A stretch of 64,000 bases of DNA from Victivallales bacterium (GTDB lineage: Bacteria; Verrucomicrobiota; Lentisphaeria; Victivallales; G963678815). The stretch is taken from positions 7,031,503 to 7,095,502 of the forward strand of contig OY787460.1 in assembly GCA_963678815.1 (NCBI GenBank). The letters are read 5' to 3'. The notes below the pieces were generated by a model that saw only the letters and a list, made by a program, of their open reading frames with translations, was not told where the DNA came from and did no database searches. This document shows, piece by piece, positions 7,511 to 50,738 of this stretch (position 1 is the first letter of the stretch; each line of letters starts with the position of its first letter). Made by a program: the position numbers and the translations under genes.

Positions 7511-7511
7511 T

Positions 7512-8255: not shown

Positions 8256-8280
8256 AAATCACACTCCTTCCAGTTGATTT

Positions 8281-10914: not shown

Positions 10915-10932
10915 TTGAATCCTGTGCCTTAT

Positions 10933-11664
10933 TTATTTTTCCGTCCAATCGTTGTTGAACAGAGCCTTGCCTATCCAGTTGTAAGAAGAAACGTGTCCGT
11001 CCTTAAACAGAAAATTAGCGGTTCTGTTATGGATCCAGGAAGGAGCTGACCGATGGTTAATTCTCAGCGTGTTGAATGGATAGAGCATTTTACATGTGTT
11101 CATAACACCACCCGACGGAGCATAATAATTCATCTCACCGAGAATCGGGGTCCCGTTAATAATGTAATTATATTTTCTGTAAGTTAAAGCGCCACTGATA
11201 CCATTATAAAACCATCCCCCCAGCCGGTCATCATTGTCGGTAAGCCCGGTGGTAACATAATTTGAGGCATAATATTCTCCTTCCGGGTCTCCGTTCCATA
11301 CCGGTGAATCACTGGCCTTTGACCCAATTGACGGACACCAGTATAAACCTACCGGAGATGCTCCCAGGGAACTTGAACCGCTATACCTGACCAGTTCCTG
11401 ATTCAAATATTCGTTTACATAATTAACATAACAGCAATTCGCATTAGTCGGGGGCATCCAATTGTTTGAATCGTCCACATAAAAATAGATACCGGAAAAA
11501 ATTTGTTTCATGTTGTTGCCGCAAGTTGATTTTTTTGCCTGTTCCCTGGCCTGTTTCAGCGCCGGCAGCAGCATTGCCGCAAGTATGGAAATGATCGCGA
11601 TCACGACCAACAGCTCGATAAGCGTGAAACTACTTTTCCGGTATTGTCCATGTCGTCGAGTCAT
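10933..11664 (-). CDS. Prepilin-type/DUF1559 (H-X9-DG) pseudopilin-like protein
   Basis: '[36 protein letters not shown]' ... 'FKDGHVSS'. It is a paralog of 7512..8255. Confidence 0.85.
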
Positions 11665-11688
11665 CTCATATCCCTTTTGGATTTTTTA

Positions 11689-15639: not shown

Positions 15640-15654
15640 ATATTCTCCTATTGT

Positions 15655-24622: not shown

Positions 24623-25834
24623 TTAAAACGGCAACGGCTTCACGGACTTGCCGTCCTTGTTCCTGCGGCATTTTGAAACATCTATAAAGATCAGCCATTT
24701 ACCTTTTTTCAGACAGCTCGCTACGATGGCGTTGCCTTCTAACACCGCCCGTTTGAACATACCCCTTTCGCCGTCATTGGTCACGGTTGTGGAATTCATA
24801 ATCAGCAGGTCATGGGCGGAAACAGGGGCCATCACTTTTTTGGCGCTTCCGGCATTTTGAATAACATTGATCCCAGCCGGATAATTTTTCCTTTTCAGCC
24901 AGCAGGCCACGAATGCGTGTCCCGGAATAATGATTATTACCGGATGCAAACCGGCGTTTTCCCATATCGCGGCCTCGAGCACGGCCAGGTCAAGACAAGT
25001 TCCCTGCTTATATTTCAGCACGTCGTCATGGGAACGGATCTTCTGTCCTTTCTCGAAGGAGGCCGGAACGGTGATGTAACCGATGTCCAGATCTTTGTTC
25101 ATGGTCCGGTGAATCGCCGTCAACATGGCAAGCACACGCATTGGATCACCCGCCTGGTAATCCTCGAAGGAATCAATCCCCGATACTTCCTTGAGCCTCT
25201 TTCTGGACATGCTGACGATTTTCTTTACCGCCGCGGAGTTCGGCCTTACGAACGCACAGAGATTTTCAATGTTTTCCGGGTCCAGGAACCATTCGTTGAA
25301 GGCCAGAATGTCAACCTTCGAGGTCGATGCGTAAAGGGTTTCCTTTGAATCCTTAATGGTCACCACCAGGGCGGCCGAAAGCCGCTCTTCGACCTCCTTG
25401 AACGCCTTGTGCCGGATCGGGATATGAATGTTCCTGAGAGTTACGGATTTTCCCGCGCCGATTGACGGTATGGTCTGGGTCCATTCCCCGGCATAGTCGT
25501 CCGGACTCAACTTTACGGTCACCAGCAGGTTCGGGGTCGCGGTATTGCCGTTATTGGTAACGGTAATGCTCTTTACAAGCTGGTCGCCGAGGTGGACCAG
25601 GAAATAGTTGAACATCGGCTCATAGACAATTTTTACCTTCAGGTCTTTAGCCTTCACGGTTTCTTTCGGGGCCGGAACCGGAGCTTTTTTTACCGGAATC
25701 GGATACTTTCTCACCTTCCCCATCGGTTTAGGGTTCTTGTACATGCTGTTAAGCGCGTCCTCATAATCGTCCGCAACCGCGCCGATCACCATTGACGCCA
25801 CCGCCATCAAACCCAATACAATCTTTCTCTTCAT
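24623..25834 (-). CDS. Secreted transglutaminase-like (Cys-His-Asp papain-fold) domain protein
   Basis: It has a signal peptide. 'QGTCLDLAVLEAAIW' supplies the catalytic Cys and 'IPGHAFVACWL' the His. Its N-terminal roughly 55 aa are near-identical to the neighbouring gene 25831..28269. It overlaps the upstream gene by 4 nt. Confidence 0.5.
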   Translation of the reverse strand: MKRKIVLGLMAVASMVIGAVADDYEDALNSMYKNPKPMGKVRKYPIPVKKAPVPAPKETVKAKDLKVKIVYEPMFNYFLVHLGDQLVKSITVTNNGNTATPNLLVTVKLSPDDYAGEWTQTIPSIGAGKSVTLRNIHIPIRHKAFKEVEERLSAALVVTIKDSKETLYASTSKVDILAFNEWFLDPENIENLCAFVRPNSAAVKKIVSMSRKRLKEVSGIDSFEDYQAGDPMRVLAMLTAIHRTMNKDLDIGYITVPASFEKGQKIRSHDDVLKYKQGTCLDLAVLEAAIWENAGLHPVIIIIPGHAFVACWLKRKNYPAGINVIQNAGSAKKVMAPVSAHDLLIMNSTTVTNDGERGMFKRAVLEGNAIVASCLKKGKWLIFIDVSKCRRNKDGKSVKPLPF

Positions 25835-28269
25835 TTTTTATCCTTTATTTTATTTAACATTTCCAAAGCTGATTTTTTCCAGTATTCATCATCAGTACTA
25901 TCATAGCATTTCTGGTACCAGAATCTTGCTTTTTCATTGTTTTTTGCTATACCGTAACCGCCTTCGTAATAGATATATCCAAAATCATACATTGCATGTT
26001 CAAGTCCTTTGTTGGCGGCCTTTTCATACCATTCAACGGCCTTGACATAATTTTTTGCCACCCCCGAACCTGAATAATACATCGCACCAATAAAAAACGC
26101 AGCGCTCACGTGACCTTTGTCAGCGGCTTTTCTGTACCACTCTAATGCTTTTTCATAGTCCGAACTCAATAATCCGATGCAATACGTAGCCAAGATATTA
26201 CCATTGTCATAAGACTTTTGAAACCAGAGCATTGCCTTGACGCCGTCCTCTTTACAGCCAACGCCGGTAGTATATGCTCTTCCGGTTATATATTGAGCGG
26301 TTGCATCGCCATTTTCCGCCAAACTTAAAACACCGGGAAATGATTCCTTGCAGATTTTTTCAGTTTTTTCTTTTTTTTCTTTCTTATAATTTAAAAATCC
26401 ATACATCTTGTAATACGCTTTTAAATATATTGCGGGAGGATAATCCGCCGCAGCTGATTGCTCCAGATATTTTTTCTCGAGTTTTTTATCATATTTTTCA
26501 GCCGTTCCGTATCGATAAGCCAATGCCATTTGTCCCTGACCTGAAATAGAACTTTTTGATACATCCGGCTTAGAATATCTGGATTTACTCAAAACGGGAG
26601 CAAGGGCAACGCGGAAGCCCAGATCGAGGTGCTGGCCCGACGGCGTGCGCCAGAGACTATAAGTTGACCGGCAGCGCCTGACGATGCAGGACCAGCTGCC
26701 GCCGGAAATCACACGGTCCGAGCCAGTACTGGGCCCTACAGGATCGGTCCGGGAATTGTTGTCGAGTTTGCCAAACCAGTCATTACACCACTCCCAAACG
26801 TTCCCACTCATATCATGAATACCAAGTTCATTACCACTCTTAGACCCCACCGCGTGCGTTTTTTTACCGCTGTTGTCTTTATACCAGCCAACACGATCAA
26901 GATCATTGCTGCCGCTGTACTTATAACCTTTGCCTTTATTCCCTCCTCGCGCCGCATATTCCCATTCCGCTTCCGTAGGAAGACGATAAACATAGCCTTC
27001 CAGTAGACGGCCAGCGGCACGCTCGCGTTCCGTAAGCTTCTCGCAGAACTTTACCGCGTCATTCCAGCTTACTTGTTCTACAGGATTGCTGTTTCCTTTG
27101 AAATGACTCGGATTTGTTCCTATAAGTGTCTGGTATTCTTTTTGCGTTACTTCATACTTCCCGATCCAAAAGCCCTTGCTGATGGTTACACGATCCACCG
27201 GCCCTGTTTCAGCTGTCCCCATCATGAAGCTGCCGGAAGCCACGTAGACTAATTTCATTCTGAGTTCCGGCACCGAAAATGACTTATCCTTGGCTGACTT
27301 TTTTTTCGTTTTATTGATTTTCGTGATACCCGCCTGATCCATCCAGTCTTTACCATAAAAGCGTTTAATATGCTCATCCGTGTAGAAAACAACGCCAAAA
27401 TTTTTGAAATTACGGGGTCTGCTCCAGGCGATAGGAACAATATCGCCCTTTCCGCTTAAACCGCCTCTATAGACGTAATCAAGCGTTTTTTCAGTAAGTG
27501 TTTCACCGGGTTTTATGGGCTTTGTGCCAGTGCTTGGACTTGTAAATATTTTCAAATCTTCCACATAACCCTCTTTTATCAAGAGATTCAGTCCGGCGGC
27601 GCCGTCAGGCGTTGGGAATTTATCATTATGGTCAAGAGCATATTGCATCAAAATAAGGCCAATACAAAGCAAATCGCTGGAAGCATTACTTCTCGTTGTT
27701 TCAAGTTTGTGCTGGGCCTGATGGATCTTGGCGATGCCTGCTTTTCCCAGCCAGTCTTTACCGGTGAAACTTTTAACATTTCCGTCCGTGTAGAGGACAT
27801 TTCCGTAATCCTCGAATTTATCAGAATTGTCCCAGGCGATAGCCGCAATACCGTCACTTTTTTTCAATCCGCCTCTATAGATATAACTATATAAATTTAT
27901 GTCCGAAGCTTTTTCTTTCAGATATTTTTCCTTTTTCAATAATTCCAGTCCTTCATAGTCATTGAGAAAAGGATATTTACCGTCATGGTCCGCGGCATAA
28001 TTATTCAGGGCCGAACCGATTTGTTTCAGGTTACGGATACTTATTTTTTTTATTTTGTCCAAATATGATCTGATATTGTCATTGTCGGCAGATTTTTTCG
28101 GAGTTGCCTCCGGGAGCGTTTTTTTAACGGGAACCGGATGCTTCCTGACTTTACCTATTGGCTTGGAATTCTTGTACATGCCATTAAGCGCGTCCTCGTA
28201 ATCGTCCGCAATTACGCCAGCCGCAACCGACGCCACCACCAGCAAACTCAAGACGATTTTTCTATTCAT
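25831..28269 (-). CDS. Secreted protein with two leaderless DUF1559-like (H-X9-DG) domains, an FGE-sulfatase (SUMF1-like) domain that retains both active-site-position cysteines, and C-terminal Sel1 repeats
   Basis: It has a signal peptide. 'LKQIGSALNNY...YTDGNVKSF' and '...FYTDEHIKRF' are DUF1559-like. The FGE domain reads 'WIGKYEVTQKEYQ...LPTEAEWEYAARGG...GNVWEWCND...GGSWSCIVRRCRS'. Sel1 repeats read 'AMYYSGSGVAKNYVKAVEWYEKAANKG'. Confidence 0.7.
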   Translation of the reverse strand: MNRKIVLSLLVVASVAAGVIADDYEDALNGMYKNSKPIGKVRKHPVPVKKTLPEATPKKSADNDNIRSYLDKIKKISIRNLKQIGSALNNYAADHDGKYPFLNDYEGLELLKKEKYLKEKASDINLYSYIYRGGLKKSDGIAAIAWDNSDKFEDYGNVLYTDGNVKSFTGKDWLGKAGIAKIHQAQHKLETTRSNASSDLLCIGLILMQYALDHNDKFPTPDGAAGLNLLIKEGYVEDLKIFTSPSTGTKPIKPGETLTEKTLDYVYRGGLSGKGDIVPIAWSRPRNFKNFGVVFYTDEHIKRFYGKDWMDQAGITKINKTKKKSAKDKSFSVPELRMKLVYVASGSFMMGTAETGPVDRVTISKGFWIGKYEVTQKEYQTLIGTNPSHFKGNSNPVEQVSWNDAVKFCEKLTERERAAGRLLEGYVYRLPTEAEWEYAARGGNKGKGYKYSGSNDLDRVGWYKDNSGKKTHAVGSKSGNELGIHDMSGNVWEWCNDWFGKLDNNSRTDPVGPSTGSDRVISGGSWSCIVRRCRSTYSLWRTPSGQHLDLGFRVALAPVLSKSRYSKPDVSKSSISGQGQMALAYRYGTAEKYDKKLEKKYLEQSAAADYPPAIYLKAYYKMYGFLNYKKEKKEKTEKICKESFPGVLSLAENGDATAQYITGRAYTTGVGCKEDGVKAMLWFQKSYDNGNILATYCIGLLSSDYEKALEWYRKAADKGHVSAAFFIGAMYYSGSGVAKNYVKAVEWYEKAANKGLEHAMYDFGYIYYEGGYGIAKNNEKARFWYQKCYDSTDDEYWKKSALEMLNKIKDKK

Positions 28270-28522
28270 TTTCCGCCTTTATCTTATTTAACATTCTCAA
28301 GGCATTTTCATATCCATTATCATAAGCCTTCTGAAACCAGTATTTTGTTTTCAAATGATCTTTTGCTATGCCCAGCCCATCATAAAATAACACTCCAATG
28401 CTATACATCGCGGTTTTACTACCTTTCCCGATGGCCTTTTTATACCATTTATTGCTTTGGTATAGTCCTTTGCAACTCCCTAAACACCATCGTAGTATAA
28501 ACATAATACTTTGCGGATGCAT
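28262..28522 (-). other. Out-of-frame continuation of the kinase 28449..31118 C-terminus. These are the terminal Sel1 repeats, displaced by a frameshift that may be authentic or a sequencing error.
   Basis: The alternative-frame peptide 'KWYKKAIGKGSKTAMYSIGVLFYDGLGIAKDHLKTKYWFQKAYDNGYENALRMLNKIKAENE' matches the canonical C-termini of paralogs (…WFQKSYDN…MLNKL / …WYQKAYDNGDKNAKEKLDKLK). The in-frame ending '...KYYVYTTMVFRELQRTIPKQ' does not match them. Confidence 0.6.
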
Positions 28523-31118
28523 CGCCTTTATCGGCTGCTTTTTTATACCATTTCATCGCTTTAGTATAATTTTTCCCCACGCCATAACCGCAACGGTAAA
28601 AATTTCCTATCTTACACATTGCATGAGTATCACCTTTGTCCGCGGCTTTTCTATAAAACTCTAATGCTTTTACATAGTCCTTTTTATTGAACCATATATT
28701 TCCGGTATCATTCAAGGATGAGATTTCTATTTCCATTATAACCTGCTTGGGGATGCCAGCTTTCTCCATCCAATCTTTACCGGTAAAGCTTTTTATTCTT
28801 CCGTCAGAATAGAAAACGCTACCGAAATTCTTAAAATTGCCGGGTTTGTCCCAGGCAACAGGTTTGCCTTCAGAATCTTTTGCCATCAAACCATTCCGAT
28901 AAACATAATCCACGGTTGTTTCTGTCCATGCTTCACCTTTTTTTGCCGGTTTGGTATTAGTATTGGGGCAAGTTAAAATCCTGGGATCTTTTATGTAGTA
29001 TTCTTTCCTCAATACATCCAGACCGGCCGCACCGTTGGTGGCTGGAAAGTGCTGAGCAAAGTCATCAGAATACATTTTCAGAGCGAGTCCAATCTTTTTT
29101 AAATTTATTCTCGCAGCCTCCAACTTACGTGTTGTTTTAATGTCGTTATCAGTTTTTTCTACCGCTTTGGCAATGAGGGTTACGGCTTTCCTGTAGGATG
29201 ACAGGGCTTTATCCCAGTCTTCGGAGGATACGGCGTTGTCGGCGCTGGATACTGCAAGCCGGGCTTCGGCCCAGTCCGCGCCGCCGAATTTGTCGATATC
29301 GGCGCGTTTCACTTTAGCGAGTTGGGCTTCATATTGTTTTTTGATAATAGCCAGTGCGGAAGTTCCAATAGCATAGTTCTTTGCGTGTTTGTATTCCTTT
29401 TCAGACGCCGTGAAGCTTTTCTTAGCTCCCGAAAAATCACCTTTTGCAAGCTTGGCCTTGCCATCATCTTCAAGGCTCTTTGCGCTGTTCCAGATACTTT
29501 TCGCCAGACTCGAAGCGTTGCTCTTTTCCGCGCTTTGTTTCTCCTGTTCCGATCTTTTTGAGGATACCATTGCCGAATTTCGTTCCGAATCGAGCTTTAC
29601 AAGCTTTCTGCATCCGGTTATTACTTCCTGGTATTTACCTAAAGCATTGCCGTAAGATTTGGCGCCAAACAAGGTTTTTGCGGTATTGAGTTTCAGTTTC
29701 AGAGTATCTTTTTTCTTTTGAAATCCGTGTTCGGGAGAAATGCGGCTTAACCTTTCGAACACCATTTCCGCGCGGCTCTTGACCGGAGCGGTTTCGGCGA
29801 GTCCGGCTTTTTCCTTGATCCTGTCCTGCATCGTCCGGGCGTAGGAGTTTTGAGGGTCGATCGACAGTATTTCCGAGGCCGCCGCCGAAGCCGCCGACAA
29901 GTCCCCTTTTCTGAATGAAGACTTCAGTTTCTTTTTAAGGGAATTGAGTTTTTCCTGCGTCTCTTTCGCGAGCTGTTCCTGACGCTGGCGTTCTTCCTCT
30001 GCCGCTTTTTCCCTGGCCAATTGTTCGGCTTTGGACTTCTGGACTTCCCGGTATTTGGTGTAGCCGAAATATCCGCCAGCGCCTATAAGGACAAGAATAA
30101 TCAGCAGAACCGCAATTATTTTGCCGCCGCCGGAGGATTTAGAGGCGCGTTTTACTTTGACTTTTCCCCTCATAGCATTGATAAACTCGTCACAGGAAGC
30201 GTAGCGGTCTGAGCCTTTTTTGGCTAACGCCTTCATCAAAAGCGCGTTTTGTTTTTTATTCAATTGGGGCAAAGGTTCCGGCATCCGGTTTTCCACCAGG
30301 TTCAACATCAAACCGGCGTCGCCCGATTCGAAAACCGACTGGAACGGTACGCCGCCGCTGATCAACTCATAAAGCATACAGGCCAGCGCGTACTGATCGG
30401 TTTCGGGTCCCTGGTTTTTACCCGCCCACTGCTCGGGGGCCATGTAGGGGCGCGTACCGGAGGTGTCGAACTGTTCCCGGGAGACCCGGCCCATCGAACT
30501 GCGGATTTCGGCGGCAAGCCCGAAGTCGAGAACCTTAACTTCTCCATCCGGGGAAATCATGATATTCGACGGTTTTACGTCGCGATGGATGATCTTTTTC
30601 GAATGCGCGAAGTCCAACGCCTGGGCGACTTTTCCGCAGATGTCCAGAGCTTTGTCCAGCGGTACTTTTTTATCCGGGAACTGTTTGCGCCAGTTGGACA
30701 GTGTCGAGCCATTGACATACTCCATCACCACCAGATAACTGTCGGGAAAAACCCGTAAATGTTCCTGGGCGGCGGCGTCAACCTTTTCCACCTTGTGGAG
30801 ATGTTCCAGCGAGGCTATGTATTGGTGTTTCAGCTTGGAGACCATTGCAAAGTTGGACCGGACGTTTTCCAGCTCTTCCGGAACCGCCGAGATCATCGGC
30901 GGCAATACTTTCAATGCGACATTGATCCCTGCCACGGTATCATGCGCCCGGTATACCGCGCCGAACCCGCCAGCTCCCAGTTGCTCGACAAGTTCATAAC
31001 GGTCAATGCGCCCTAACGATCCGGGAGAATTCCCGTTTTCGGTAAGCATGTTGCCAATGGATAAATCCAGATTTTCGCCACTTTCCGTTTTAAAATCGCC
31101 AATATTACTATTATCCAT
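28449..31118 (-). CDS. Hanks-type Ser/Thr protein kinase (receptor-like) with one TM helix, a coiled-coil/TPR-like ectodomain, a leaderless DUF1559-like domain and Sel1 repeats. The 3' end is frameshifted and the true C-terminus is probably at 28262.
   Basis: Kinase motifs GAGGFGAVYRA, VALKVL, IIHRDVKPSNIM, DFGLA and GTRPYMAPEQ are all present. The TM helix is IIAVLLIILVLIGAGGYFGY. The DUF1559-like segment reads 'LKKIGLALKMY...FYSDGRIKSF'. The N-terminal roughly 650 aa are identical to gene 47603..50713. Confidence 0.8.
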   Translation of the reverse strand: MDNSNIGDFKTESGENLDLSIGNMLTENGNSPGSLGRIDRYELVEQLGAGGFGAVYRAHDTVAGINVALKVLPPMISAVPEELENVRSNFAMVSKLKHQYIASLEHLHKVEKVDAAAQEHLRVFPDSYLVVMEYVNGSTLSNWRKQFPDKKVPLDKALDICGKVAQALDFAHSKKIIHRDVKPSNIMISPDGEVKVLDFGLAAEIRSSMGRVSREQFDTSGTRPYMAPEQWAGKNQGPETDQYALACMLYELISGGVPFQSVFESGDAGLMLNLVENRMPEPLPQLNKKQNALLMKALAKKGSDRYASCDEFINAMRGKVKVKRASKSSGGGKIIAVLLIILVLIGAGGYFGYTKYREVQKSKAEQLAREKAAEEERQRQEQLAKETQEKLNSLKKKLKSSFRKGDLSAASAAASEILSIDPQNSYARTMQDRIKEKAGLAETAPVKSRAEMVFERLSRISPEHGFQKKKDTLKLKLNTAKTLFGAKSYGNALGKYQEVITGCRKLVKLDSERNSAMVSSKRSEQEKQSAEKSNASSLAKSIWNSAKSLEDDGKAKLAKGDFSGAKKSFTASEKEYKHAKNYAIGTSALAIIKKQYEAQLAKVKRADIDKFGGADWAEARLAVSSADNAVSSEDWDKALSSYRKAVTLIAKAVEKTDNDIKTTRKLEAARINLKKIGLALKMYSDDFAQHFPATNGAAGLDVLRKEYYIKDPRILTCPNTNTKPAKKGEAWTETTVDYVYRNGLMAKDSEGKPVAWDKPGNFKNFGSVFYSDGRIKSFTGKDWMEKAGIPKQVIMEIEISSLNDTGNIWFNKKDYVKALEFYRKAADKGDTHAMCKIGNFYRCGYGVGKNYTKAMKWYKKAADKGDASAKYYVYTTMVFRELQRTIPKQ

Positions 31119-31143
31119 ATATTTATTCCATCCTGAATTATAA
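29160..31143. repeat. Copy 1 of a roughly 2 kb direct repeat (copy 2 at 48755-50738). About 1.8 kb is identical and a junction of about 180 nt is about 88% identical.
   Basis: Identical six-frame ORFs recur at a constant offset of 19595 nt (for example 29322..29561 and 48917..49156). I compared the junctions directly. Confidence 0.85.
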
Positions 31144-31148
31144 AAAAA

Positions 31149-32852
31149 TCAGCTCTGGTTGGTGGAAGTGTTTTTATTTCCTGAACCCGCGGCGGCGCTT
31201 CTGGCATTGGCGTCGAGCGACTTGTCCAGGACCTGTTCTAAGCGGTCAGCGTTTTTCTCCATTAACTCGACTTTTTCATTTACCATATCTGCCTTAATCT
31301 TGCTGGCATTGGCTTCAGCGTTGGCTTTGGCAATATCGGCCACGGATTTAGCCAGTTCAGCGTTGTCACCGGCCTGTATTGCAAGCATCTGCTCGGGGGC
31401 CATGTTGGCCATCATTTCTTTGAGCTTCATATCATTGCCGGTCTTGATCGCTTCCTGATACTGCTTGAATTCTTCCGGGGAAAGAACCGAGGCCAGTGCT
31501 TCAACGGACTGTCCGGTGCGGTTAGCAATTTTTGTTTTCTCCTCTTCAGCATCGAGCGCTGAACGCTGGGCGCGAAGGTCCAGGCCCATTTCAGCCTTTT
31601 TGATTTTATCTTCGTGCGTAGCCATGTCCTGACTGCGCATTTGGGCGAAATCCTTGTCCTTTTCGGCGCGATCGAAATCGTTTAATTTCGCCTCTTTGCC
31701 CATGTTGTGGTCAAGTTCGATATTTTCGTTTTCCCTGCGGAAATCATCGGCGTCACGCTTAAGTTCCTGGGCTTGTTTCTGTTTTTTCTGTTCGAGCTCA
31801 TGGTTGAGGTCCGCGAGAATTTTCTTGAATTCCACGTCCAACTGTTCTTTGTTCAGATCGTATTCGTAAGCGAGCTGATCGAGCTGTGCCTGAAGGTCTT
31901 TTTCGGTTTTGACGGTATCAAGCTTATCGTCAGAGACGATCCGCCTGGCGCGTTTTTCCAGAACTGCTTTCCGGGCGTCCGCTTCGATATTACCGGCTTT
32001 CTCGCACAACTCCTCATAGGTTTTGCCGAAGAAGGTGACGGCGGCGCAACGGACAAGGACCATGCCGTACCTTTCGGCGGCCCTGGACATAGTCAAGGCA
32101 AGGCGGTTTTCGAAAGCCTCGCGGACATGTGCCGATTTCACCAGGTCGTCGATACTGGCTTCAAGGCACATGCTTCTCACGGCTTCGGTAACTTCATGCT
32201 CCAGGCATTTCCACAAGTTATCATAGCGGACTTCGTTTGATTCCGCGTTTTTTTCCTGGTCTGATTCCGTGTGAACGATCTGGCGTTTGTCCTTCAGGAC
32301 GTTTTCGATCAATGCAAGGGCTTTTTCCGGGTTGAAACGGAAAATAGCCTCGGTGTAAAAGTTAAGCTTCATATCCTCCTTGGAGCGAAGCCCGAGGACG
32401 TTGAAAGGAAGGGCCACATCGCCTGCGTCAACCAAAAAGAAAGACTTATATGCCGGTTCGGAAAAAACACGTTTAAGCAGATTTCCGTCCACGTTGTATG
32501 CGCCGGGTTTCAGAACATCGGTGATCTTGCCGTTTTCCATCACGATGGCTTTGGTGCCTTCCTCAATAATAAGTTTGCCGTCGAGACGCCGCTTAATGGC
32601 GGGAAGGTCAACCCGCTGAAGAAACACTCCGGCCACACGGCGGATCGATCCGTTTACCACCAGGTCGCGCTCTTCCGGGTACAAGGCAGCCCGGCAGCTG
32701 TGACAGAATTCCGCTTCGACGCCTACCCATGAATTGCAGTTGTGACATCTAGTCCATCCGCCGGGAGCGCCGGTGCCGCATTTATTACAGAATCTTGCCT
32801 GTTTGGGAACCCGGTTGCCGCATTTCTCACATTTGTCCGCGAATATACCCAT
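31149..32852 (-). CDS. Double zinc-ribbon plus SPFH/band-7 (flotillin-like) domain protein with a long C-terminal coiled coil. It is the first gene of the kinase operon.
   Basis: The N-terminus has 'CEKCGNRVPKQARFCNKCG' and 'CHNCNSWVGVEAEFCHSCR'. An SPFH-like segment follows. The last roughly 250 aa are a charged E/K/A-rich coiled coil. Confidence 0.5.
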   Translation of the reverse strand: MGIFADKCEKCGNRVPKQARFCNKCGTGAPGGWTRCHNCNSWVGVEAEFCHSCRAALYPEERDLVVNGSIRRVAGVFLQRVDLPAIKRRLDGKLIIEEGTKAIVMENGKITDVLKPGAYNVDGNLLKRVFSEPAYKSFFLVDAGDVALPFNVLGLRSKEDMKLNFYTEAIFRFNPEKALALIENVLKDKRQIVHTESDQEKNAESNEVRYDNLWKCLEHEVTEAVRSMCLEASIDDLVKSAHVREAFENRLALTMSRAAERYGMVLVRCAAVTFFGKTYEELCEKAGNIEADARKAVLEKRARRIVSDDKLDTVKTEKDLQAQLDQLAYEYDLNKEQLDVEFKKILADLNHELEQKKQKQAQELKRDADDFRRENENIELDHNMGKEAKLNDFDRAEKDKDFAQMRSQDMATHEDKIKKAEMGLDLRAQRSALDAEEEKTKIANRTGQSVEALASVLSPEEFKQYQEAIKTGNDMKLKEMMANMAPEQMLAIQAGDNAELAKSVADIAKANAEANASKIKADMVNEKVELMEKNADRLEQVLDKSLDANARSAAAGSGNKNTSTNQS

Positions 32853-32890
32853 TTCACACCTCCTGCCTTATAAATAATTTTCACATATTT

Positions 32891-32916
32891 TACGTAACAA
32901 AAACATCCACCTCACG
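32891..32916 (-). promoter_or_regulatory. Candidate ECF-type promoter, motif copy A (CGTGAGG-N15-CGTA), 39 nt upstream of the 31149..32852 start
   Basis: An RBS (AGGAGGTG) lies between the motif and the start codon. Confidence 0.5.
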
Positions 32917-32962
32917 CGAAATAATGAATTTACCGCGATAACATAAAAAACGTTTTGCAAAC

Positions 32963-35900
32963 CTATTTAAGCTTATCTAACTTTTCCTTGGCATTTTTAT
33001 CACCGTTGTCATATGCCTTCTGATACCAGCGCTTTGCCTCGGTGAGGTCTTTTGTGACTCCCCAGCCATTCTTGTACATATCCGCGATATAATTCATTGC
33101 GTCCGTATTGCCCATGCCGGCGGCTTTCTTATACAACTCCATGGCTTTTTCGTAGTCTTTTTCAACCCCATTCCCCCAATAATACATATTCCCGACGCTT
33201 CTTATCCCGTTCGGATCTTCTTTGTCAGCGGATTTTCTGTACCATTTCAGAGCTTCGACGTAGTCTTTTTTTACTCCATATCCCCAATAATACATATTCC
33301 CGACATAAACCATTGCTTTCGTATCACCGTTATCCGCGGCTTTTTTATACCACTTAATAGCTTCCAGGTCATCTTTTTTGACCCCTTCTCTGCCATTATA
33401 ATATATCAGCGCGATATAATTCATTGCTTTGGTATTACCTTTATCCGCGGCTTTTTTATACCACTTAACAGCTTCGTGACCGTCCTCTTTAACCCCATAA
33501 CCGTTAAGATACATATTCCCGATATAAATCATGGCTTTGATATTGCCATTTGCCGCGGCTTTTTTATACCACTTCAGGGCTTCGGGATTATCTTCTTTAA
33601 CGCCGCGTCCATTATAATACATGTGTCCAATGCCAGCCATCGCATCAGGATTACCTTTATCGGCGGCTTTCCGGTAGTATTCCAAAGCTTTTGAATACTC
33701 TTTTTTGTCATAATGCTTTTTCCCGGTTTCATACCAGGCGTCGGCGTTTTTCTTATCGATCAGTTTACTTACGCCTGCTTTTTCCATCCAGTCTTTGCCG
33801 GAAAAGCCTGAAACATGGCCATCAGCATAAAGGACGTTTCCGAAGTCCTTGAAGTTTCCGTGCTTATCCCAGGCGACAGGGGTATCGCCGCCTTTGCCGT
33901 AAACCGCGCCTCCCCGGTAAACATAATCCACAGTGGCTTCGGTTAATTTTTCTCCGGGTTTCGCGGGTTTGGTGTCCGTAGCCGGACATATGAATATTTT
34001 CGGTTCGGTGAGATATTCCTCTTTTCTCAACAATTCAAACCCGGCGGCTCCATCGGGAGCCGGAAACTTGTTTTTATAGTCCATTGCGTACATGCACAGC
34101 GCCAAGCCGATCTGTTTCAGATTGTTCGCATCGCTTATCTTTTTAGCTTTCAACCGGGCGTGTGCAAGCGCTGACTCTATGGCTTGCCGCATTTCCGCGC
34201 TGATTTCTACAGACGCGGATACCTCCATGCCCTGATTGATAAATTTTACGGTTTCAGTCCCGCCCGGCAGCCTGCAGATTTGATTCAGAACCGCATTCAC
34301 CTGATTCAGATGCGAACTCAACATTCTCAGACTGTCGCTTGAAGCGCAAACGGCGTTCAGGCGCAAAATGTAACCGTTTTGGTTATTTTTCACCGACAGC
34401 AAGACATGTTTCGTCAGCGGAATCTTGTTCTTTTCCGCCAACGGTTCCGGTATTTTCGCGGCGACGCTGACAAATTCCGGTTTGCCCCCGGCAAGTTTTT
34501 TCAGTTCGCTTGAACCGTCAGCGGTTCTTTGATAGAGGGATTTGATCAGCAACTCTTTCGTGCCGAATGAAAGAATATTATCCGGGAGCTGGGCAATATA
34601 CAGTTTTACATTATTATCATCATAGAACAGATAAATATCCCTGGAATTATATTTTTCTCTGGTTTCGGCAACGTCTCCCATATCGCTGACGGCTCTTTTC
34701 AAGTCGAACGGACGGTTGAATTGAGCGTTGACGATAAATGGGATTGACGGCTTTTCCGGATTGATAATTCCGGGCAGGACAACGCCAACGGAAACACTTT
34801 CAATATTTTCAGGATTAATCCCATATTCATTAAGCTTATTTTTAAATTTGGGATTAACCTGTAAGAACTCCTGGTATTTTGAAAATATTTCTTTAATCGA
34901 GAGTAATTTCCGCACATCAATAGACGCAACAACATTGCAGTTGACGGGCAGCATGTCGGTTAGAGTAATTTTTTTAGGGGGAGCAGGCTCTTTCTTTTGA
35001 ACGCGTTTTTGTTTTGCGGCTTCCGGCTTTTTCTGAATTTCCTTTTTCTGAGGAATAACGATTTTTTCCTGTTGAACGTAATTTTGTTCTTCCGCGACCG
35101 GCGGTTTTTTCAGACTCCCGGTATTTACTGTATCGGATTTACTGGTAAGCATGGCGATAAATATTCCGGCAAATACCGCAACTACTCCCGCCAGACATAA
35201 TCCGCCCCATATCAGCAGGCTTTTCTTTCCGGAACCATTCCCGGTTTTATTCATCGATTCAGCTTTTTTACGGCCAACGTTTGAAACACCCGGCGCTTTT
35301 ACCGCTTTTATGTCGTTGGTCAGGGCGGCGACGGAATCGTAACGGTCTGCGGCTTCCGGCTCCAGGCACTTGAGGATGATGCTGTCCCATTGTTTGTTAT
35401 GGCCGAGTTCGGACGGCAGTTTAAAGCGTCCTTTCGCCTTTTTGCCGGTCAGCATGCGATAGATTATCAAACCTAAAGCATAGATGTCGCTTCTGGCGGT
35501 TGCCTCCCCGCCTTCCTGCTGTTCCGGGGCCATGTATTCGTAAGTTCCCAAAAGGGAACCCGTGGTGGTCCTGGACGACTGCCCTGAGCCTTTCATAGTG
35601 GCCATGCCGCCGATCGACAAGTCCGCAGATTGCGCCCCACCCATGGTCAGGCGGATCGACTGGTCGATCATATTGCGCAGGTAATCGGACCCGACCACTT
35701 TCGCCAGTCCGAAATCGGCGATCTTGACATTATTTCTGGAATCCATCAGAATATTGGATGGTTTCAGGTCGCGGTGAACCACGCCTTCCTGGAAGTTGTG
35801 GGCATAATTCAGGGCGTCGCAGATTTGCAGCGATAATTCCCTGACGTCTTTATCGCTGAAACTTCCTTTCTCCCGGATTTCATCTTCAAGGGTTTTCGGC

Positions 35901-36232
35901 TTGCCCTCGTCGCTTTCCACATAATCCATAACCAGATAGTAAAGCCCATCATTTGCGCCGATGAAATTGACATGGACAATATTGGGGTGGCTCAAATCAG
36001 CCATGACCCTTGCTTCGATTTTGAACCTGTCGATGAAACTGCCGTTAGCCGAAAGATCCGGAGGAAGAACTTTGAGCGCATAGCGTTTGTGCATCTGAAT
36101 ATTTTCCACCATGTACACTTCGCCCATGCCGCCTTTGCCCAGCAAAGCCAATACCCGGTATTCGCCAATAACTGATCCTGTTTTTAAAATTGTTCCGACC
36201 TCTTCCGACATTTTCGGTAAAATCCTTATCAT
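32963..36232 (-). CDS. Hanks-type Ser/Thr receptor kinase with a TM helix, a leaderless DUF1559-like domain and Sel1 repeats
   Basis: Kinase motifs GKGGMGEVY, ALKVL, VVHRDLKPSNILMD, DFGLAKV and GTYEYMAPEQ. The TM helix is LLIWGGLCLAGVVAVFAGIFIAML. The DUF1559-like segment reads 'LKQIGLALCMYAMDY...LYADGHVSGF'. About 8 Sel1 repeats follow. Confidence 0.8.
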   Translation of the reverse strand: MIRILPKMSEEVGTILKTGSVIGEYRVLALLGKGGMGEVYMVENIQMHKRYALKVLPPDLSANGSFIDRFKIEARVMADLSHPNIVHVNFIGANDGLYYLVMDYVESDEGKPKTLEDEIREKGSFSDKDVRELSLQICDALNYAHNFQEGVVHRDLKPSNILMDSRNNVKIADFGLAKVVGSDYLRNMIDQSIRLTMGGAQSADLSIGGMATMKGSGQSSRTTTGSLLGTYEYMAPEQQEGGEATARSDIYALGLIIYRMLTGKKAKGRFKLPSELGHNKQWDSIILKCLEPEAADRYDSVAALTNDIKAVKAPGVSNVGRKKAESMNKTGNGSGKKSLLIWGGLCLAGVVAVFAGIFIAMLTSKSDTVNTGSLKKPPVAEEQNYVQQEKIVIPQKKEIQKKPEAAKQKRVQKKEPAPPKKITLTDMLPVNCNVVASIDVRKLLSIKEIFSKYQEFLQVNPKFKNKLNEYGINPENIESVSVGVVLPGIINPEKPSIPFIVNAQFNRPFDLKRAVSDMGDVAETREKYNSRDIYLFYDDNNVKLYIAQLPDNILSFGTKELLIKSLYQRTADGSSELKKLAGGKPEFVSVAAKIPEPLAEKNKIPLTKHVLLSVKNNQNGYILRLNAVCASSDSLRMLSSHLNQVNAVLNQICRLPGGTETVKFINQGMEVSASVEISAEMRQAIESALAHARLKAKKISDANNLKQIGLALCMYAMDYKNKFPAPDGAAGFELLRKEEYLTEPKIFICPATDTKPAKPGEKLTEATVDYVYRGGAVYGKGGDTPVAWDKHGNFKDFGNVLYADGHVSGFSGKDWMEKAGVSKLIDKKNADAWYETGKKHYDKKEYSKALEYYRKAADKGNPDAMAGIGHMYYNGRGVKEDNPEALKWYKKAAANGNIKAMIYIGNMYLNGYGVKEDGHEAVKWYKKAADKGNTKAMNYIALIYYNGREGVKKDDLEAIKWYKKAADNGDTKAMVYVGNMYYWGYGVKKDYVEALKWYRKSADKEDPNGIRSVGNMYYWGNGVEKDYEKAMELYKKAAGMGNTDAMNYIADMYKNGWGVTKDLTEAKRWYQKAYDNGDKNAKEKLDKLK

Positions 36233-36237
36233 TAAAT

Positions 36238-39200
36238 TTAAAGCTTATTCAACATGTCTTGGGCGCGCTTTTTCTGGTAACTGAACGTGCTGTTGTCATA
36301 AGATTTCTGAAACCAGAGCCTTGCCTGAATACTGTTTTTCTTTATTCCGTAACCGCCTTGGAGATAGAGGATGCCGATGGAATACATGGCGTTCGAGTTT
36401 TTCTTTTTGGACGCCTTCAAAAACCAGCTCATGGCATCCATATAATTTTTTGCGACGCCGTGGCCGTTCTGGTACATGAGCCCGATTGAAGTCATTGCCG
36501 GCGCACTGCCTTTATCGGCGGCCTTTTTATACCATTCCATGGCTTTGTCATAATTTTTAGTTATGCCATATCCCCCTTGGGTGTATGTAAAACCGAGGTT
36601 GTTCATTGCGAGGGTATTGCCTCTTTTGGCGGCTTTCTTGTACCATTCCACCGCGGTTGTATAATCTTTGTCTACACCTTGACCGTATTTATAAAACTGA
36701 GCAATACTATTCATGGCTCTGGTGTCACCTTTATCGGCGGCCTTTGTATACCATTCCATGGCTTTTGAATAGTCTTTGGTAACACCTAATCCATATTTGT
36801 ACACATTTGCGATATTTTTCATGGCCGTGGTATTGCCTTTGCCGGCGCCTTTTTTATACCACAGTAACGCCATATGGGAGCTTTTGCTTACCCCATAGCC
36901 ATTCTGGTACATATAACCAATATTGCCTAATGCGGAAGTATTGCCATTATCGGCGGCCTTTTTGTACCATTCCATGGCCTTTGAGTAATTTTTAGCAAAA
37001 CCTTTACCATTCAGGTACAATTGTCCGATCATGTTCATGGAATATGAATTACCTGCATCAGCCGCTTTTTTGAACCAGTCAAACGCTTTGAAATAATTTT
37101 TCGGCAAGCCCTCTCCGCCGATGTAATACAGCATGGCAATGGAATGCATTGCCACGGAGTCACCTTTGTCCGCCAACTTTTCATACCATTCCAAAGCCTT
37201 GGAATAGTCTTTTTGCACTCCGTTCCCAAGTTTATACATAAACGCAATATTGTTGATTGAAAGCTTGTCGCCTTTGGCGGCGGCTTTTTTGTACCATTCC
37301 ATGGCTTTGGTGTAATCTTTTTTAAGACCGCCGATCCCCCATGAATAGAATCTTCCGAGAGTGTTCATGGCCTTTACTTCGCCATTTTCGGCGGCTTTTT
37401 TATACCATTCCAAAGCTTTGGTATAGTCCTTTTTGACGCCATAGCCGTAATTGTAGAATCTCCCGATATCGTACATTGCGGTTGCAAGTCCTTTATCGGC
37501 GGCTTTTTTATACCATTCCAAGGCTTTGGCGTAATCTTTATCAACGCCGTTAGTTCCCAGGTAATAGATGTAACCGATCATGTACATCGACATTCTGTTG
37601 CCTTTACCGGCGGCCTTTTTAAACCATTCCAATGCCTTAACATAATTTTTATCAACGCCGTTACCGCCGTAGAAATAGATGTCGCCGATATCGGACAACG
37701 CCCTGTCATTCCCTTTTTCCGCCGCTTGTTTTAACCATTTCAAGGCTTCCGCGAAATTTTTTTCAACTCCTTCGCCTTTATAAAATTTCTTGCCGACATT
37801 ATACAGGCCCGTGGTGTTGCCTTTTTTCGCGGCTTTTTCATACCACTCAATGGCTTTCACATCATCTTTGGTGATGCCGTCAGCACCGTAATAATAATAA
37901 TTCCCGATTTTGATCATCGAGGAAGTATTGCCTTTTTCGGCGGCTTTTTTGTACCATTTTATCGCTTCGGAGGTATCTTTTTTGACACCATAACCATGCT
38001 GATACATATACCCTATGTTACTGATCGCGGCAATATTGTAATTCGCGGCGGCTTTTTTATACCATTCCATGGCCTTGGCATAGTTTTGATCTATTCCATA
38101 GCCACCTTTATAATACAAGTTCGCAATACCGTTCATTGCGTAAGCGCTGCCTTTACCGGCGGCTTTTTTATACCATTCCAAAGCTTTAGAATAATCCTTT
38201 TTTACCCCGTATCCCATTTTGTACATACGCGCGATATTCATCATTCCGCATACACCACCATTGTCGGCGGCTTTGGTAAACCATTTCAAGGCTTTGGAAT
38301 AATCCTTGTCTACTCCATAACCGCCTTTGCTGTAAATGAATCCTATACAGGTTATGGCATCTATATAGTCTTTTTCGGCGGCTTTTTTGTACCAGCGCAA
38401 TGCTTTTACATAATCTTTTTTAACGCCAACTCCGCCATCATAAATACTTCCCAGATTATGTATTGCTACAACATGACCTTTTTCCGCGGCTTTATGAGAC
38501 CATTCCCTTGTTTTTGCATAATCCAATTTTATGCCTTCTACGCCTTTGAGTCCCCCGTATAACATTGCAATTTGATTCATTGCATCAGCATTATCTTTTT
38601 CGGCGGCTTTTTTATACCAATACATGGCTTTGCTGGCAGTCTGTTTATAATCAGCGCCTTCTTCATGTGGAAAACAACAGGTTTCATATGCAATGCCAAC
38701 GGCCAACTGAGCTATCGGATCTCCTGATTCAGCCAGCTTCAAGGCAGCAGGGAAACACTTTTTCGCGATTTCATTTGCTTTTTGCGGGAGTTCCTCGAAT
38801 CCCAACCGTCCATACAGGTAACAGTATGCTTCGTATAACTGTGCGGAGGGATAGCCCGTTCCGGCAGCCTGTTTATATAGTTTTGCTGCGAGTTTTTTGT
38901 CAACTTTTCCTGCCAAGCCATATTCGTAACAGGTTGCCTGGTCCATAAGTTTTTGGCTTTTGACGGTTCCCGTCAATCCGTCTTTCAGCTTCTTCAATAT
39001 TAAAGCTATTTTCCGGTTTGATTCATAACCTTTTACCGCTTTTGCTTTTTCATACAGTCTTTCCGCCTGCCACAACAATTGGTTTTTCTCCGCTTTTTCG
39101 GCTTTGGCAACTAATGCGTTGAATTCCGTAATGTGCCCTTGGGCGGTTTTTATTCCTTCCAAAGCAACCTTGCTGTCCCGGTAGCCGGGAATTTTCAATG

Positions 39201-50713: not shown

Positions 50714-50738
50714 ATACTTATTCCATCTTGAATTATCT
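48755..50738. repeat. Copy 2 of the roughly 2 kb direct repeat (copy 1 at 29160-31143)
   Basis: See copy 1. Confidence 0.85.

What the first reader, a model, noticed from the sequence alone, without database searches (positions are those of the whole stretch)
25831..36232. DUF1559 (H-X9-DG) pseudopilin domains lacking their prepilin leader are embedded in kinase ectodomains and in a secreted FGE-Sel1 protein
DUF1559 normally follows an N-terminal prepilin cleavage/methylation helix. The window has four such canonical genes, at 7512, 10933, 54586 and 62362. Here complete DUF1559-like modules ('LKQIGLAL.MY...PAKPGE..TE.TVDYVYRGG...VAWDK.GNFK.FG.V.Y.DG.V..F.GKDWMEKAGI') occur without the leader in three places. 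One is inside the periplasmic part of Ser/Thr kinases (28449..31118 and 32963..36232). The other is in tandem in the Sec-secreted protein 25831..28269. This suggests the fold has been repurposed as a ligand-binding sensor module, possibly binding the same glycan or protein ligands as the pseudopilin paralogs.
Basis: partly seen in the sequence, partly recalled or inferred. Interest (0 to 1): 0.7.

Follow-up and report, generated by a model that had tools for sequence, protein, structure and literature searches.

The report
Leaderless pilin-head domains in kinase sensors
Four copies of a small pilin-like head domain that has lost the pilin's membrane leader sit in the outward-facing parts of two signalling kinases and one exported protein, and database searches show this leaderless form is a widespread, apparently undescribed family centred on Lentisphaerae bacteria.

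Summary
There are exactly four copies of a 107-124 aa module, 48-59% identical to each other. Two lie in the exported protein at 25831-28269. One lies outside the single membrane helix of each Ser/Thr kinase (28449-31118 and 32963-36232). None has a prepilin leader.

"Complete DUF1559" is overstated:
- Only profile positions 2-41 of 268 match, mostly below threshold.
- The signature His is Phe in all four copies.
- The window's own pseudopilins are only remote relatives.

The leaderless state is not local. Only 1 of the 147 closest relatives has a prepilin motif. The rest carry ordinary membrane anchors, polytopic proteins, kinases (apparently at least three separate fusions) or sigma/anti-sigma parts. 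Most named relatives are from Lentisphaerae.

My best reading is a non-polymerising pilin head reused as an extracytoplasmic recognition domain. The ligand is unknown, and glycan binding is unsupported.

The two kinases at 28449 and 47603 share a near-identical 2-kb 5' part that ends 9 codons before the module.

The parts
25831..28269 (-). 812-aa exported mosaic protein: N-terminal hydrophobic signal segment, two pilin-head modules, FGE-sulfatase domain, Sel1 repeats
   Evidence: ORF. Pfam FGE-sulfatase 2e-46 and Sel1 2e-25. One hydrophobic segment at aa 5-23. Each part is paralogous to another protein of the island.
27718..28038 (-). Module copy 1 of the 812-aa protein (aa 78-184). Shorter than the others, lacking 17 residues of the alpha-beta loop; motif F-X9-DG.
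   Evidence: domain E 1e-44.
27310..27681 (-). Module copy 2 of the 812-aa protein (aa 197-320); motif F-X9-DE.
   Evidence: domain E 5e-65.
26605..27252 (-). FGE-sulfatase domain of the 812-aa protein (aa 340-555)
   Evidence: Pfam PF03781, 2e-46. 68% identical to the FGE domain of the kinase at 47603-50713.
25846..26517 (-). Sel1-repeat region of the 812-aa protein (about aa 585-808)
   Evidence: Pfam Sel1, 4 stretches. 41-46% identical to Sel1 repeats of the 1692-aa kinase.
28449..31118 (-). 889-aa Hanks-type Ser/Thr kinase: kinase domain, one membrane helix, helical stalk, pilin-head module, TPR/Sel1
   Evidence: Pkinase 2.7e-44, Sel1 and TPR hits. Membrane helix at aa 334-352.
28740..29111 (-). 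Module of the 889-aa kinase (aa 670-793); motif F-X9-DG
   Evidence: domain E 4e-66.
29139..31141 (-). 2.0-kb repeat shared with 48734-50736. It covers the kinase domain, membrane helix and stalk and ends about 9 codons upstream of the module.
   Evidence: 656 of 660 aa identical, then unrelated. One mismatch in 29322-31121, about 90% identity in 29139-29321, no similarity outside.
32963..36232 (-). 1089-aa Ser/Thr kinase: kinase domain, one membrane helix, unknown domain, pilin-head module, seven Sel1 repeats. The database copy starts 7 codons later.
   Evidence: Pkinase 1.3e-44, Sel1 7e-61. Membrane helix at aa 344-362. P0024.
34130..34558 (-). Region upstream of the module (aa 559-701), related to the N-terminal domain of a roughly 600-aa family. 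It ends in an amphipathic helix that replaces the hydrophobic pilin helix.
   Evidence: 35% identity over 271 aa to P0073; 'AIESALAHARLKAKKISD' aligns with '[23 protein letters not shown]'. A continuous helix of about 40 residues runs into the module.
33761..34129 (-). Module of the 1089-aa kinase (aa 702-824); motif F-X9-DG. This is the copy that was modelled.
32993..33748 (-). Sel1 repeats of the 1089-aa kinase (about aa 829-1080)
   Evidence: Pfam Sel1, 7 stretches, 7e-61.
47603..50713 (-). 1036-aa paralogous kinase. Its first 660 aa match the 889-aa kinase, but it carries TPR plus FGE-sulfatase instead of module plus Sel1.
36238..41316 (-). 1692-aa paralogous kinase, 66% identical to the 889-aa kinase over aa 1-665. 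It has 22 Sel1 repeats and no module.

Best explanation
Each of the four segments is a compact type IV pilin / T2SS pseudopilin head domain. It has the C-terminal half of the pilin alpha-1 helix ('NLKQIGLAL.MY'), an alpha-beta loop and a four-stranded sheet that ends in the '..G.V.Y.DG.V..F' strand. The segments belong to a short subfamily of the DUF1559 / H-X9-DG pseudopilin-like proteins. Most named relatives are from Lentisphaerae, and as a group the subfamily has given up the prepilin leader.

The modules lack the hydrophobic alpha-1 N-terminal half, Phe1 and Glu5. I infer from this that they cannot be processed by prepilin peptidase or polymerised into a filament. Instead the head is held on the extracytoplasmic side by whatever precedes it.

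In this genome it has become a fully soluble internal domain. It is grafted through its alpha-1 helix onto the helical stalk of Hanks-type Ser/Thr kinase ectodomains and is followed by Sel1 repeats. It is also duplicated in an exported protein built from the same ectodomain types as the kinases (module, FGE-sulfatase, Sel1).

The most likely role is an extracytoplasmic recognition (input) domain that, together with the Sel1 repeats, controls kinase activity. Phospho-signalling to the FHA-domain proteins encoded in the same island, including a sigma-70-like FHA protein, is a possible downstream route.

Shown here: domain identity, predicted fold, loss of the leader, predicted topology, recurrence of the architecture, and cassette-like exchange of the C-terminal sensor part between paralogous kinases.

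Inferred: the input-domain function, the inability to polymerise, and the downstream route. The ligand is unknown.
For: - Four copies and no others, 48-59% identical.
- AF2 model with pLDDT 95.3 and pTM 0.88.
- A profile search of 1.84 billion representatives finds 1244 relatives at E<=1e-3 and 367 at E<=1e-10.
- Of the 147 best, 111 hit PF07596, only 1 hits N_methyl, 21 carry DUF4190, 8 GYF_2, 6 Pkinase and 5 Sel1.
- Only 1 of the 147 has a G-F-T-L-I-E motif; the rest have generic anchors of 1-5 membrane helices, polytopic proteins of 14-16 helices, kinases, sigma or anti-sigma parts, or a 600-aa family that keeps 'AGMLLPALNSAREKARRISC'.
- The kinase-linked modules do not group together, which suggests at least three separate fusions: the window copies; P0058/P0053, with P0059 at 49% identity; and P0115, which groups with the 600-aa family.
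- The named genomes holding the closest relatives are all Lentisphaerae/Victivallales. One is an 842-aa kinase-Sel1-module protein next to a protein with 19 Sel1 repeats.
- There is one membrane helix per kinase, N-terminal to the module.
- The 889-aa and 1036-aa kinases are 99% identical for 660 aa and diverge 9 codons before the module.
- The remnant pilin helix is recognisable but amphipathic in the 1089-aa kinase.
Against: - No experiment or ligand evidence exists. Function is inferred from architecture only.
- Pfam support is thin: only positions 2-41 of 268, below the cut-off in the full proteins.
- His is present in 133 of 148 related modules but is Phe in all four window copies. The first Cys of the family's Cys pair is also lost. 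These copies may therefore have lost whatever the motif does.
- No orthologue of the exact window architectures was found in any collection searched, so long-term conservation of these particular fusions is not shown.
Confidence: 0.6

Rival explanations
1. The module is a ligand-binding sensor that recognises the same glycan or protein ligands as the genome's leader-bearing DUF1559 pseudopilins.
For: - In the window, the leader-bearing pseudopilin genes at 7512, 10933 and 54586 lie next to glycoside hydrolase, CBM9 or GntR-type regulator genes, so that family is associated with polysaccharide use.
- The module sits in kinase ectodomains.
Against: - The module profile does not detect the window's pseudopilins at all.
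- Profile-profile comparison gives only 56% probability over the first 50 columns.
- The heads differ in size: about 120 aa against about 200 aa.
- Nothing shows that either group binds glycans.
- The window modules have lost the conserved His and the first Cys.
Confidence: 0.12
2. A pilin mimic that docks onto the pseudopilus or its assembly platform. The head contacts other pseudopilin heads or T2SS / type IV filament parts in the periplasm. This would couple kinase signalling to the state of secretion or pilus assembly, or cap or anchor filaments.
For: - The predicted fold is that of GspG/PilA-type subunits.
- Many relatives keep the C-terminal half of the membrane helix, 'AGMLLPAL..AREKARRISC'.
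- The genome encodes many pseudopilin-like proteins.
Against: - The window copies have no hydrophobic helix at all.
- No T2SS or pilus assembly gene lies in the island or next to the leaderless relatives examined.
- Filament contacts depend mainly on the missing alpha-1 N-terminal half (established knowledge of type IV filaments).
Confidence: 0.13
3. A structural spacer or oligomerisation element. The pilin head is a rigid cap on the helical stalk that positions or dimerises the Sel1 repeats, which do the recognition. The module itself has no ligand.
For: - Loss of the family's conserved His and Cys in all four window copies.
- In the window proteins the module is always followed by Sel1 or TPR repeats.
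- Its alpha-1 helix is continuous with the preceding helix.
Against: - In most relatives the module is the only extracytoplasmic domain and ends the protein. This argues for a function of its own.
- A paralogous kinase manages with Sel1 repeats alone.
Confidence: 0.13
4. An artefact: chance similarity, decayed pseudopilin pseudogenes read through by mistake, or an assembly chimera.
For: - Pfam scores are low.
- A near-identical 2-kb repeat could in principle mislead an assembler.
Against: - The ORFs of 812, 889 and 1089 aa are intact.
- Four mutually conserved copies.
- A very confident fold prediction.
- Hundreds of relatives with the same leaderless layout in independent assemblies.
- Identity declines gradually at the repeat boundary. 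I read this as pointing to recombination rather than mis-assembly.
Confidence: 0.02

Closest known systems
DUF1559 (Pfam PF07596, SBP_bac_10) / H-X9-DG (TIGR04294) pseudopilin-like proteins of Planctomycetes, Lentisphaerae and Verrucomicrobia
   Same: They share the 'AREKARRISC.NNLKQIGLAL.NY...FP' helix and the C-terminal 'G.NV.F.DGHV' strand. 111 of the 147 nearest relatives hit PF07596.
   Different: - The module has no prepilin leader.
- The head is about 120 aa against a 268-position model, and only positions 2-41 align.
- His is replaced by Phe.
- The module is embedded inside multidomain proteins.
- The function of DUF1559 itself is unknown. It is the largest paralog family in Planctopirus limnophila, with 68 copies, 2 of them essential (PMC10632474).
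Major T2SS pseudopilin GspG (EpsG 4lw9, PulG 5wda) and type IV pilins (PilA4 6xxd)
   Different: - No class III signal peptide and no alpha-1 N-terminal half, so filament assembly is not expected.
- No hit to TIGR01710.
- The module is fused to kinases.
- Whether the calcium site of GspG is retained was not examined.
CpaL of the Caulobacter Tad pilus (pilin-like domain plus vWA domain)
   Same: It is a pilin-like domain joined to a non-pilin domain in one protein (PMC13170226). One relative here, P0035, also carries vWA domains.
   Different: [quoted passage not shown] The window modules lack the hydrophobic helix and sit in kinases.
Bacterial Hanks-type receptor kinases with extracytoplasmic sensor domains (for example PknB with PASTA repeats; FGE-sulfatase-domain kinases)
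   Same: The layout is the same: kinase domain, one membrane helix, extracytoplasmic domain(s). Two kinases of the same island carry FGE-sulfatase ectodomains.
   Different: The sensor here is a pilin head plus Sel1 repeats. I found no such combination described in the library searched.
ExoR-ExoS type control: a periplasmic Sel1-repeat protein that regulates a membrane sensor kinase (from my own knowledge)
   Same: The exported 812-aa protein carries Sel1 repeats and the same ectodomain types as the neighbouring kinases. It could act as a soluble partner.
   Different: - ExoS is a histidine kinase.
- The ExoR hits here are weak generic Sel1 matches (30.9 bits against a cut-off of 450).
- No interaction has been tested.

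Membership tests
Pfam PF07596 DUF1559 (SBP_bac_10) | Score at or above the gathering threshold of 23.3 bits | tested here: inconclusive
   In the full proteins: 13.8 bits (889-aa kinase), 21.4 bits (1089-aa kinase), no hit (812-aa protein). As isolated modules: 26.7, 17.8, 15.3 bits and no hit. 111 of the 147 nearest relatives hit at E<=1e-3, best 8e-16.
Pfam PF07596 DUF1559 (SBP_bac_10) | Alignment across the 268-position domain model | tested here: not met
   Only positions 2-41 align in the window modules, and about 2-45 in the relatives. The module is about 120 aa.
TIGR04294 H-X9-DG domain | His, nine residues, then Asp-Gly, and an HMM score of at least 19 bits | tested here: not met
   The motif is F-X9-DG in three copies and F-X9-DE in one. 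The best HMM score is 13.9 bits. His is present in 133 of 148 related modules.
Type IV pilin / pseudopilin (class III signal peptide proteins; TIGR02532, PF07963) | N-terminal prepilin cleavage/methylation motif (G|FTLIE) and a hydrophobic alpha-1 N-terminal half | tested here: not met
   None of the three proteins has an N_methyl or TIGR02532 hit. No hydrophobic segment precedes any module.
Type IV pilin / pseudopilin (class III signal peptide proteins; TIGR02532, PF07963) | Pilin head fold (alpha-1 C-terminal helix on an antiparallel sheet) | tested here: met
GspG major pseudopilin (TIGR01710) | HMM score of at least 88.85 bits | tested here: not met
   The modules give no hit. The leader-bearing window pseudopilins reach 25-33 bits, through the leader region only.
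Hanks-type Ser/Thr protein kinase (PF00069) | Pkinase domain above threshold, with one membrane helix between it and the sensor part | tested here: met
   Scores of 152 and 153 bits against a cut-off of 31.7. Single membrane helices at aa 334-352 and 344-362.
Sel1 repeat proteins (PF08238) | Sel1 repeats above threshold, C-terminal to the module | tested here: met
   88.7, 46.5 and 200.9 bits against a cut-off of 30.7.
FGE-sulfatase domain (PF03781) | Domain above threshold in the 812-aa protein | tested here: met
   159.1 bits against a cut-off of 23.3, at aa 340-555. Catalytic residues were not examined.

The most novel reading that the evidence does not exclude
Lentisphaerae have turned the pseudopilin head into a general, non-polymerising extracytoplasmic receptor domain. 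This would be a new class of sensor input domain derived from type IV filament subunits.

In this island the exported 812-aa protein is built from the same three ectodomain types as the kinases. It would act as a soluble co-receptor or antagonist that binds the kinase ectodomains through module-module or Sel1 contacts. The output would go through the FHA-bearing sigma-like protein at 23552-24622.

Recombination that swaps the C-terminal sensor cassette between otherwise identical kinases would diversify what the cell can sense.
Probability: 0.15. Interest if true: 0.75.

Novelty: new variant of a known kind. Interest (0 to 1): 0.55.

Why it matters
Pilins and pseudopilins are defined by their class III leader and their assembly into filaments. 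A large family in which the head domain survives without that leader would show that the pilin fold has a second life outside filaments. In this family the head is displayed by ordinary membrane anchors and wired to kinases and sigma/anti-sigma proteins.

It also gives a foothold on DUF1559 / H-X9-DG, one of the largest protein families of unknown function in the PVC bacteria. A small, soluble, confidently modelled version attached to a kinase output is far easier to test for ligands than a membrane-embedded pilin.

The near-identical kinases with swapped sensor cassettes are a clear example of how receptor repertoires diversify.

Tried and rejected
- A PDB sequence search with a family profile gave no hit at E<=10.
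- Exact look-ups of the window proteins in the assembly index failed. The source organism is therefore inferred only from relatives, plus an 8.6-Mb source contig.
- A genome-contig scan with the four window modules found nothing. The 26-sequence alignment was too divergent to search with. A five-sequence family alignment worked.
- A metagenome scan for the Phe variant found only two loci. The one examined (L080) encodes a small anchored His-type protein, so no orthologues of the window fusions were found.
- AF2 of the 1089-aa kinase ectodomain (aa 415-830) resolved only the helix and module. The upstream domain had pLDDT below 50, so I ran no fold search on it.
- I looked for T2SS or pilus genes beside leaderless relatives in three loci and found none.
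- I rejected three readings: chance similarity, decayed pseudogenes and an assembly chimera (see the rival explanations).
- I rejected treating all eight 'DUF1559' copies in the window as one alignable set. The module profile does not detect the four leader-bearing genes.
Full report
**What is in the sequence**

The three ORFs named in the finding exist on the minus strand:
- 25831-28269 (812 aa)
- 28449-31118 (889 aa)
- 32963-36232 (1089 aa)

Pfam gives the following architectures:
- The 812-aa protein has an FGE-sulfatase domain (aa 340-555) and four Sel1 repeats.
- The other two proteins have N-terminal Hanks-type kinase domains (152 and 153 bits) and C-terminal Sel1/TPR repeats.

A hydropathy scan finds one membrane helix in each kinase, just after the kinase domain (aa 334-352 and 344-362). 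It finds a single N-terminal hydrophobic segment in the 812-aa protein. Everything C-terminal of these segments is therefore predicted to lie outside the cytoplasm. I did not run a signal-peptide predictor, so Sec export of the 812-aa protein is an inference from the n-h-c pattern and a V-I-A|D site.

**The modules**

A profile of that alignment, run against all six-frame ORFs of the window, finds exactly these four copies (domain E 1e-44 to 4e-66) and nothing else.

Window coordinates:
- 27718-28038 and 27310-27681 in the 812-aa protein (aa 78-184 and 197-320)
- 28740-29111 in the 889-aa kinase (aa 670-793)
- 33761-34129 in the 1089-aa kinase (aa 702-824)

None of the three proteins has an N_methyl or TIGR02532 hit.

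**Is it DUF1559 / H-X9-DG?**

Only in part.
- PF07596 matches profile positions 2-41 of 268, the 'NLKQIGLAL.MY...FP' helix.
- The match is below the 23.3-bit cut-off in the full proteins (13.8 bits, 21.4 bits, no hit). It reaches 26.7 bits only for the isolated module of the 1089-aa kinase.
- TIGR04294 reaches 13.9 bits against a cut-off of 19.
- By alignment, the motif residue that is His in 133 of 148 related modules is Phe in all four window copies. One copy also has DE in place of DG.
- The first Cys of the family's Cys pair (RRISC ... CPS) is lost as well.

The four leader-bearing pseudopilin genes at 7512, 10933, 54586 and 62362 pass the N_methyl/TIGR02532 cut-offs. They show H-X9-DG by eye (H-X9-DM in the fourth). 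They too are below the PF07596 cut-off. The module profile does not detect them. Profile-profile comparison gives 56% probability, E 1e-4, over the first 50 columns only. So the modules are not recent offshoots of the window's pseudopilins.

**Fold**

An AlphaFold2 model of the 1089-aa kinase module, built with 26 homologues, has mean pLDDT 95.3 and pTM 0.88. It shows a 16-residue N-terminal helix, two short helices and four strands.

- PilE, PilV, PAK pilin, ComP, PilX

No solved structure is related by sequence.

A second model, of aa 415-830 of the 1089-aa kinase, was confident only for the module and for a continuous helix of about 40 residues leading into it.

**Relatives**

A word-indexed search found 22 small proteins of 106-215 aa. 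Most had PF07596 precomputed. Five had a typical GFTLIELL leader and the rest had ordinary hydrophobic N-termini.

An exhaustive HMMER search of 1.84 billion representatives found 1244 relatives at E<=1e-3 and 367 at E<=1e-10. The three window proteins were at the top, from an 8.6-Mb contig held by NCBI/ENA.

Among the best 147 relatives:
- 111 hit PF07596 and only 1 hits N_methyl.
- 21 carry DUF4190, 8 GYF_2, 6 Pkinase and 5 Sel1.
- Only 1 has the prepilin motif upstream of the module.
- The others have 1-5 generic membrane helices, polytopic proteins of 14-16 helices, kinases, an ECF-sigma-membrane-helix fusion, an anti-sigma-like vWA protein, or zinc-ribbon proteins.
- There is also a family of about 600 aa: a signal peptide, an unknown 440-aa domain, then 'AGMLLPALNSAREKARRISC', which is the C-terminal half of the pilin membrane helix, followed by the module.

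The ectodomain of the 1089-aa kinase aligns with that 600-aa family at 35% identity over 271 aa. Where the family has the hydrophobic '[23 protein letters not shown]', the kinase has the amphipathic 'AIESALAHARLKAKKISD'. I read this as a visible remnant of descent from a true pseudopilin.

Nearest-neighbour identities show that the kinase-linked modules do not group together:
- The window copies group with each other and with small anchored proteins.
- P0058 and P0053 are 86% identical to each other. P0059 is closest to P0074 (62%) and is 49% identical to P0058.
- P0115 groups with the 600-aa family.

This is consistent with at least three separate kinase fusions, but it rests on pairwise identities rather than a tree.

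**Taxonomy and context**

In a scan of species-representative genomes, every relative at 44% identity or more is from Lentisphaerae, Lentisphaeria, Victivallales or Victivallis MAGs. More distant, leader-bearing relatives come from Brocadiales and other Planctomycetota, Verrucomicrobia and others.
- The leaderless ORFs score best. Leader-bearing ones have longer heads of 140-160 aa.
- One Victivallales locus holds six anchored leaderless modules in tandem.
- Another locus has an 842-aa kinase-Sel1-module protein followed by a protein with 19 Sel1 repeats.
- I saw no T2SS genes beside the leaderless relatives I examined.
- Neither the genome scan nor the metagenome scan with the window's Phe-type patterns found an orthologue of the window fusions.

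**The island**

Between about 23.5 and 50.7 kb the window encodes:
- a sigma70_r2 + FHA protein
- a transglutaminase-like exported protein
- the 812-aa protein
- the 889-aa kinase
- an SPFH / zinc-ribbon protein
- the 1089-aa kinase
- a 1692-aa kinase with 22 Sel1 repeats
- an LpoB-like protein
- an FHA protein
- two kinases with FGE-sulfatase ectodomains

The 889-aa kinase and the 1036-aa kinase at 47603-50713 are identical at 656 of 660 residues and then unrelated. One carries module+Sel1 and the other TPR+FGE.

At the DNA level, 29139-31141 equals 48734-50736. There is one mismatch across 1.8 kb and a margin of about 90% identity at the module-proximal end. The boundary falls about 9 codons before the module. 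This looks like recent recombination or gene conversion that leaves the C-terminal sensor cassettes distinct.

The 812-aa protein is a mosaic of parts paralogous to its neighbours:
- aa 1-67 match the transglutaminase-like protein at 58% identity.
- The modules match those of the kinases at 37-51%.
- The FGE domain matches that of the 1036-aa kinase at 68%.
- The Sel1 part matches the 1692-aa kinase at 41-46%.

**Interpretation**

*Shown:* a compact domain with a predicted pilin-head fold, related to DUF1559 / H-X9-DG, without the class III leader, on the predicted extracytoplasmic side of two kinases and in an exported protein. It belongs to a large subfamily that is leaderless as a rule.

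*Inferred:* the module lacks the alpha-1 N-terminal half, Phe1 and Glu5, so it should not be processed or polymerised. It recurs as the outermost domain on varied membrane anchors and is joined repeatedly to signalling outputs (kinases, sigma and anti-sigma parts). It is therefore most likely an extracytoplasmic recognition domain.

*Confidence:* about 0.9 for the identity of the domain and about 0.5 for the input-domain role.

The ligand is unknown. Glycan binding shared with the pseudopilins, docking to pseudopili, and a purely structural role all remain possible. The loss of His and Cys in the window copies is a warning that these copies may work differently from the rest of the family.

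**Literature**

In the searchable library, DUF1559 appears in four papers and 'H-X9-DG' in one unrelated paper. DUF1559 is described only as a large paralog family of unknown function in Planctomycetes (PMC10632474; PMC2754498). Searches combining pseudopilin or prepilin with Lentisphaerae or Victivallales, and 'pilin-like domain' with kinase, found no description of leaderless fusions. The nearest published analogue I found is the pilin-like plus vWA protein CpaL of the Tad pilus (PMC13170226).

**Verdict**

I rate this a new variant of a known kind, of moderate interest.

Noticed in passing
window 29139-31141 and 48734-50736: This is a 2.0-kb direct repeat, 19.6 kb apart, with one mismatch across 1.8 kb. 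It covers the kinase domain, membrane helix and stalk of two kinases whose C-terminal sensor parts are unrelated (module+Sel1 against TPR+FGE-sulfatase). Identity falls to about 90% over the last 180 nt before the breakpoint, which suggests gene conversion.
   Followed up: yes
window 7512-8255, 10933-11664, 54586-55359, 62362-63051; loci L001-L079: None of the window's four leader-bearing pseudopilins has the usual Gly at position -1 before FTLIELL; they have Asp, Ser, Phe and Tyr. In the fetched loci, those labelled Lentisphaerae show 16 Gly against 20 non-Gly (Lys most often), while other phyla show 27 Gly of 29. Prepilin-peptidase processing may be relaxed or lost in this lineage.
   Followed up: partly
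window 23552-24622 (+): This 356-aa protein has a sigma-70 region 2 at its N-terminus and an FHA domain at its C-terminus. It sits at the edge of the kinase island and is a candidate phospho-threonine-controlled sigma factor.
   Followed up: no
window 24623-25834 (-) and 25831-28269 (-): A transglutaminase-like exported protein shares its first 67 residues (58% identity, 78% at DNA level) with the 812-aa protein. Its start overlaps that gene's stop by 4 nt, so the two are probably co-transcribed.
   Followed up: partly
window 6247-16722 and 53493-60084: The leader-bearing pseudopilin genes at 7512, 10933 and 54586 lie beside GntR-type regulators, glycoside hydrolases (rhamnosidase, BNR sialidase-like, GH65-like) or CBM9/DUF4838 proteins. 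This resembles polysaccharide-utilisation clusters. The ORF next to the fourth gene (62362) was not scanned.
   Followed up: partly
window 31149-32852 (-): A 567-aa protein with a double zinc ribbon, an SPFH/Band 7 domain and a long charged coiled-coil tail lies between the two module-bearing kinases.
   Followed up: no
window 36238-41316 (-): This 1692-aa kinase has 22 Sel1 repeats in its ectodomain. It is 66% identical to the 889-aa kinase up to the point where the module starts in that protein.
   Followed up: partly
proteins P0067, P0073, P0075, P0078 and about ten more; loci L005, L013, L021: A family of about 600 aa has a signal peptide, an unknown 440-aa domain (no Pfam hit, and poorly modelled for the related kinase region), the C-terminal half of a pilin membrane helix, the module and a 40-70-aa tail. 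How a half membrane helix sits between two presumably periplasmic domains is unexplained.
   Followed up: partly
locus L004 1389-5833 (Victivallales MAG): Six consecutive genes each encode a protein of about 220-250 aa with generic membrane helices followed by one leaderless module.
   Followed up: partly
loci L060 and L079 (Tepidisphaerales, Planctomycetota): Proteins of 721-742 aa carry a C-terminal module preceded by 'MLPSLN.ARE.ANRVKCASNLKQIG' and no prepilin motif. The leaderless layout is therefore not confined to Lentisphaerae.
   Followed up: no
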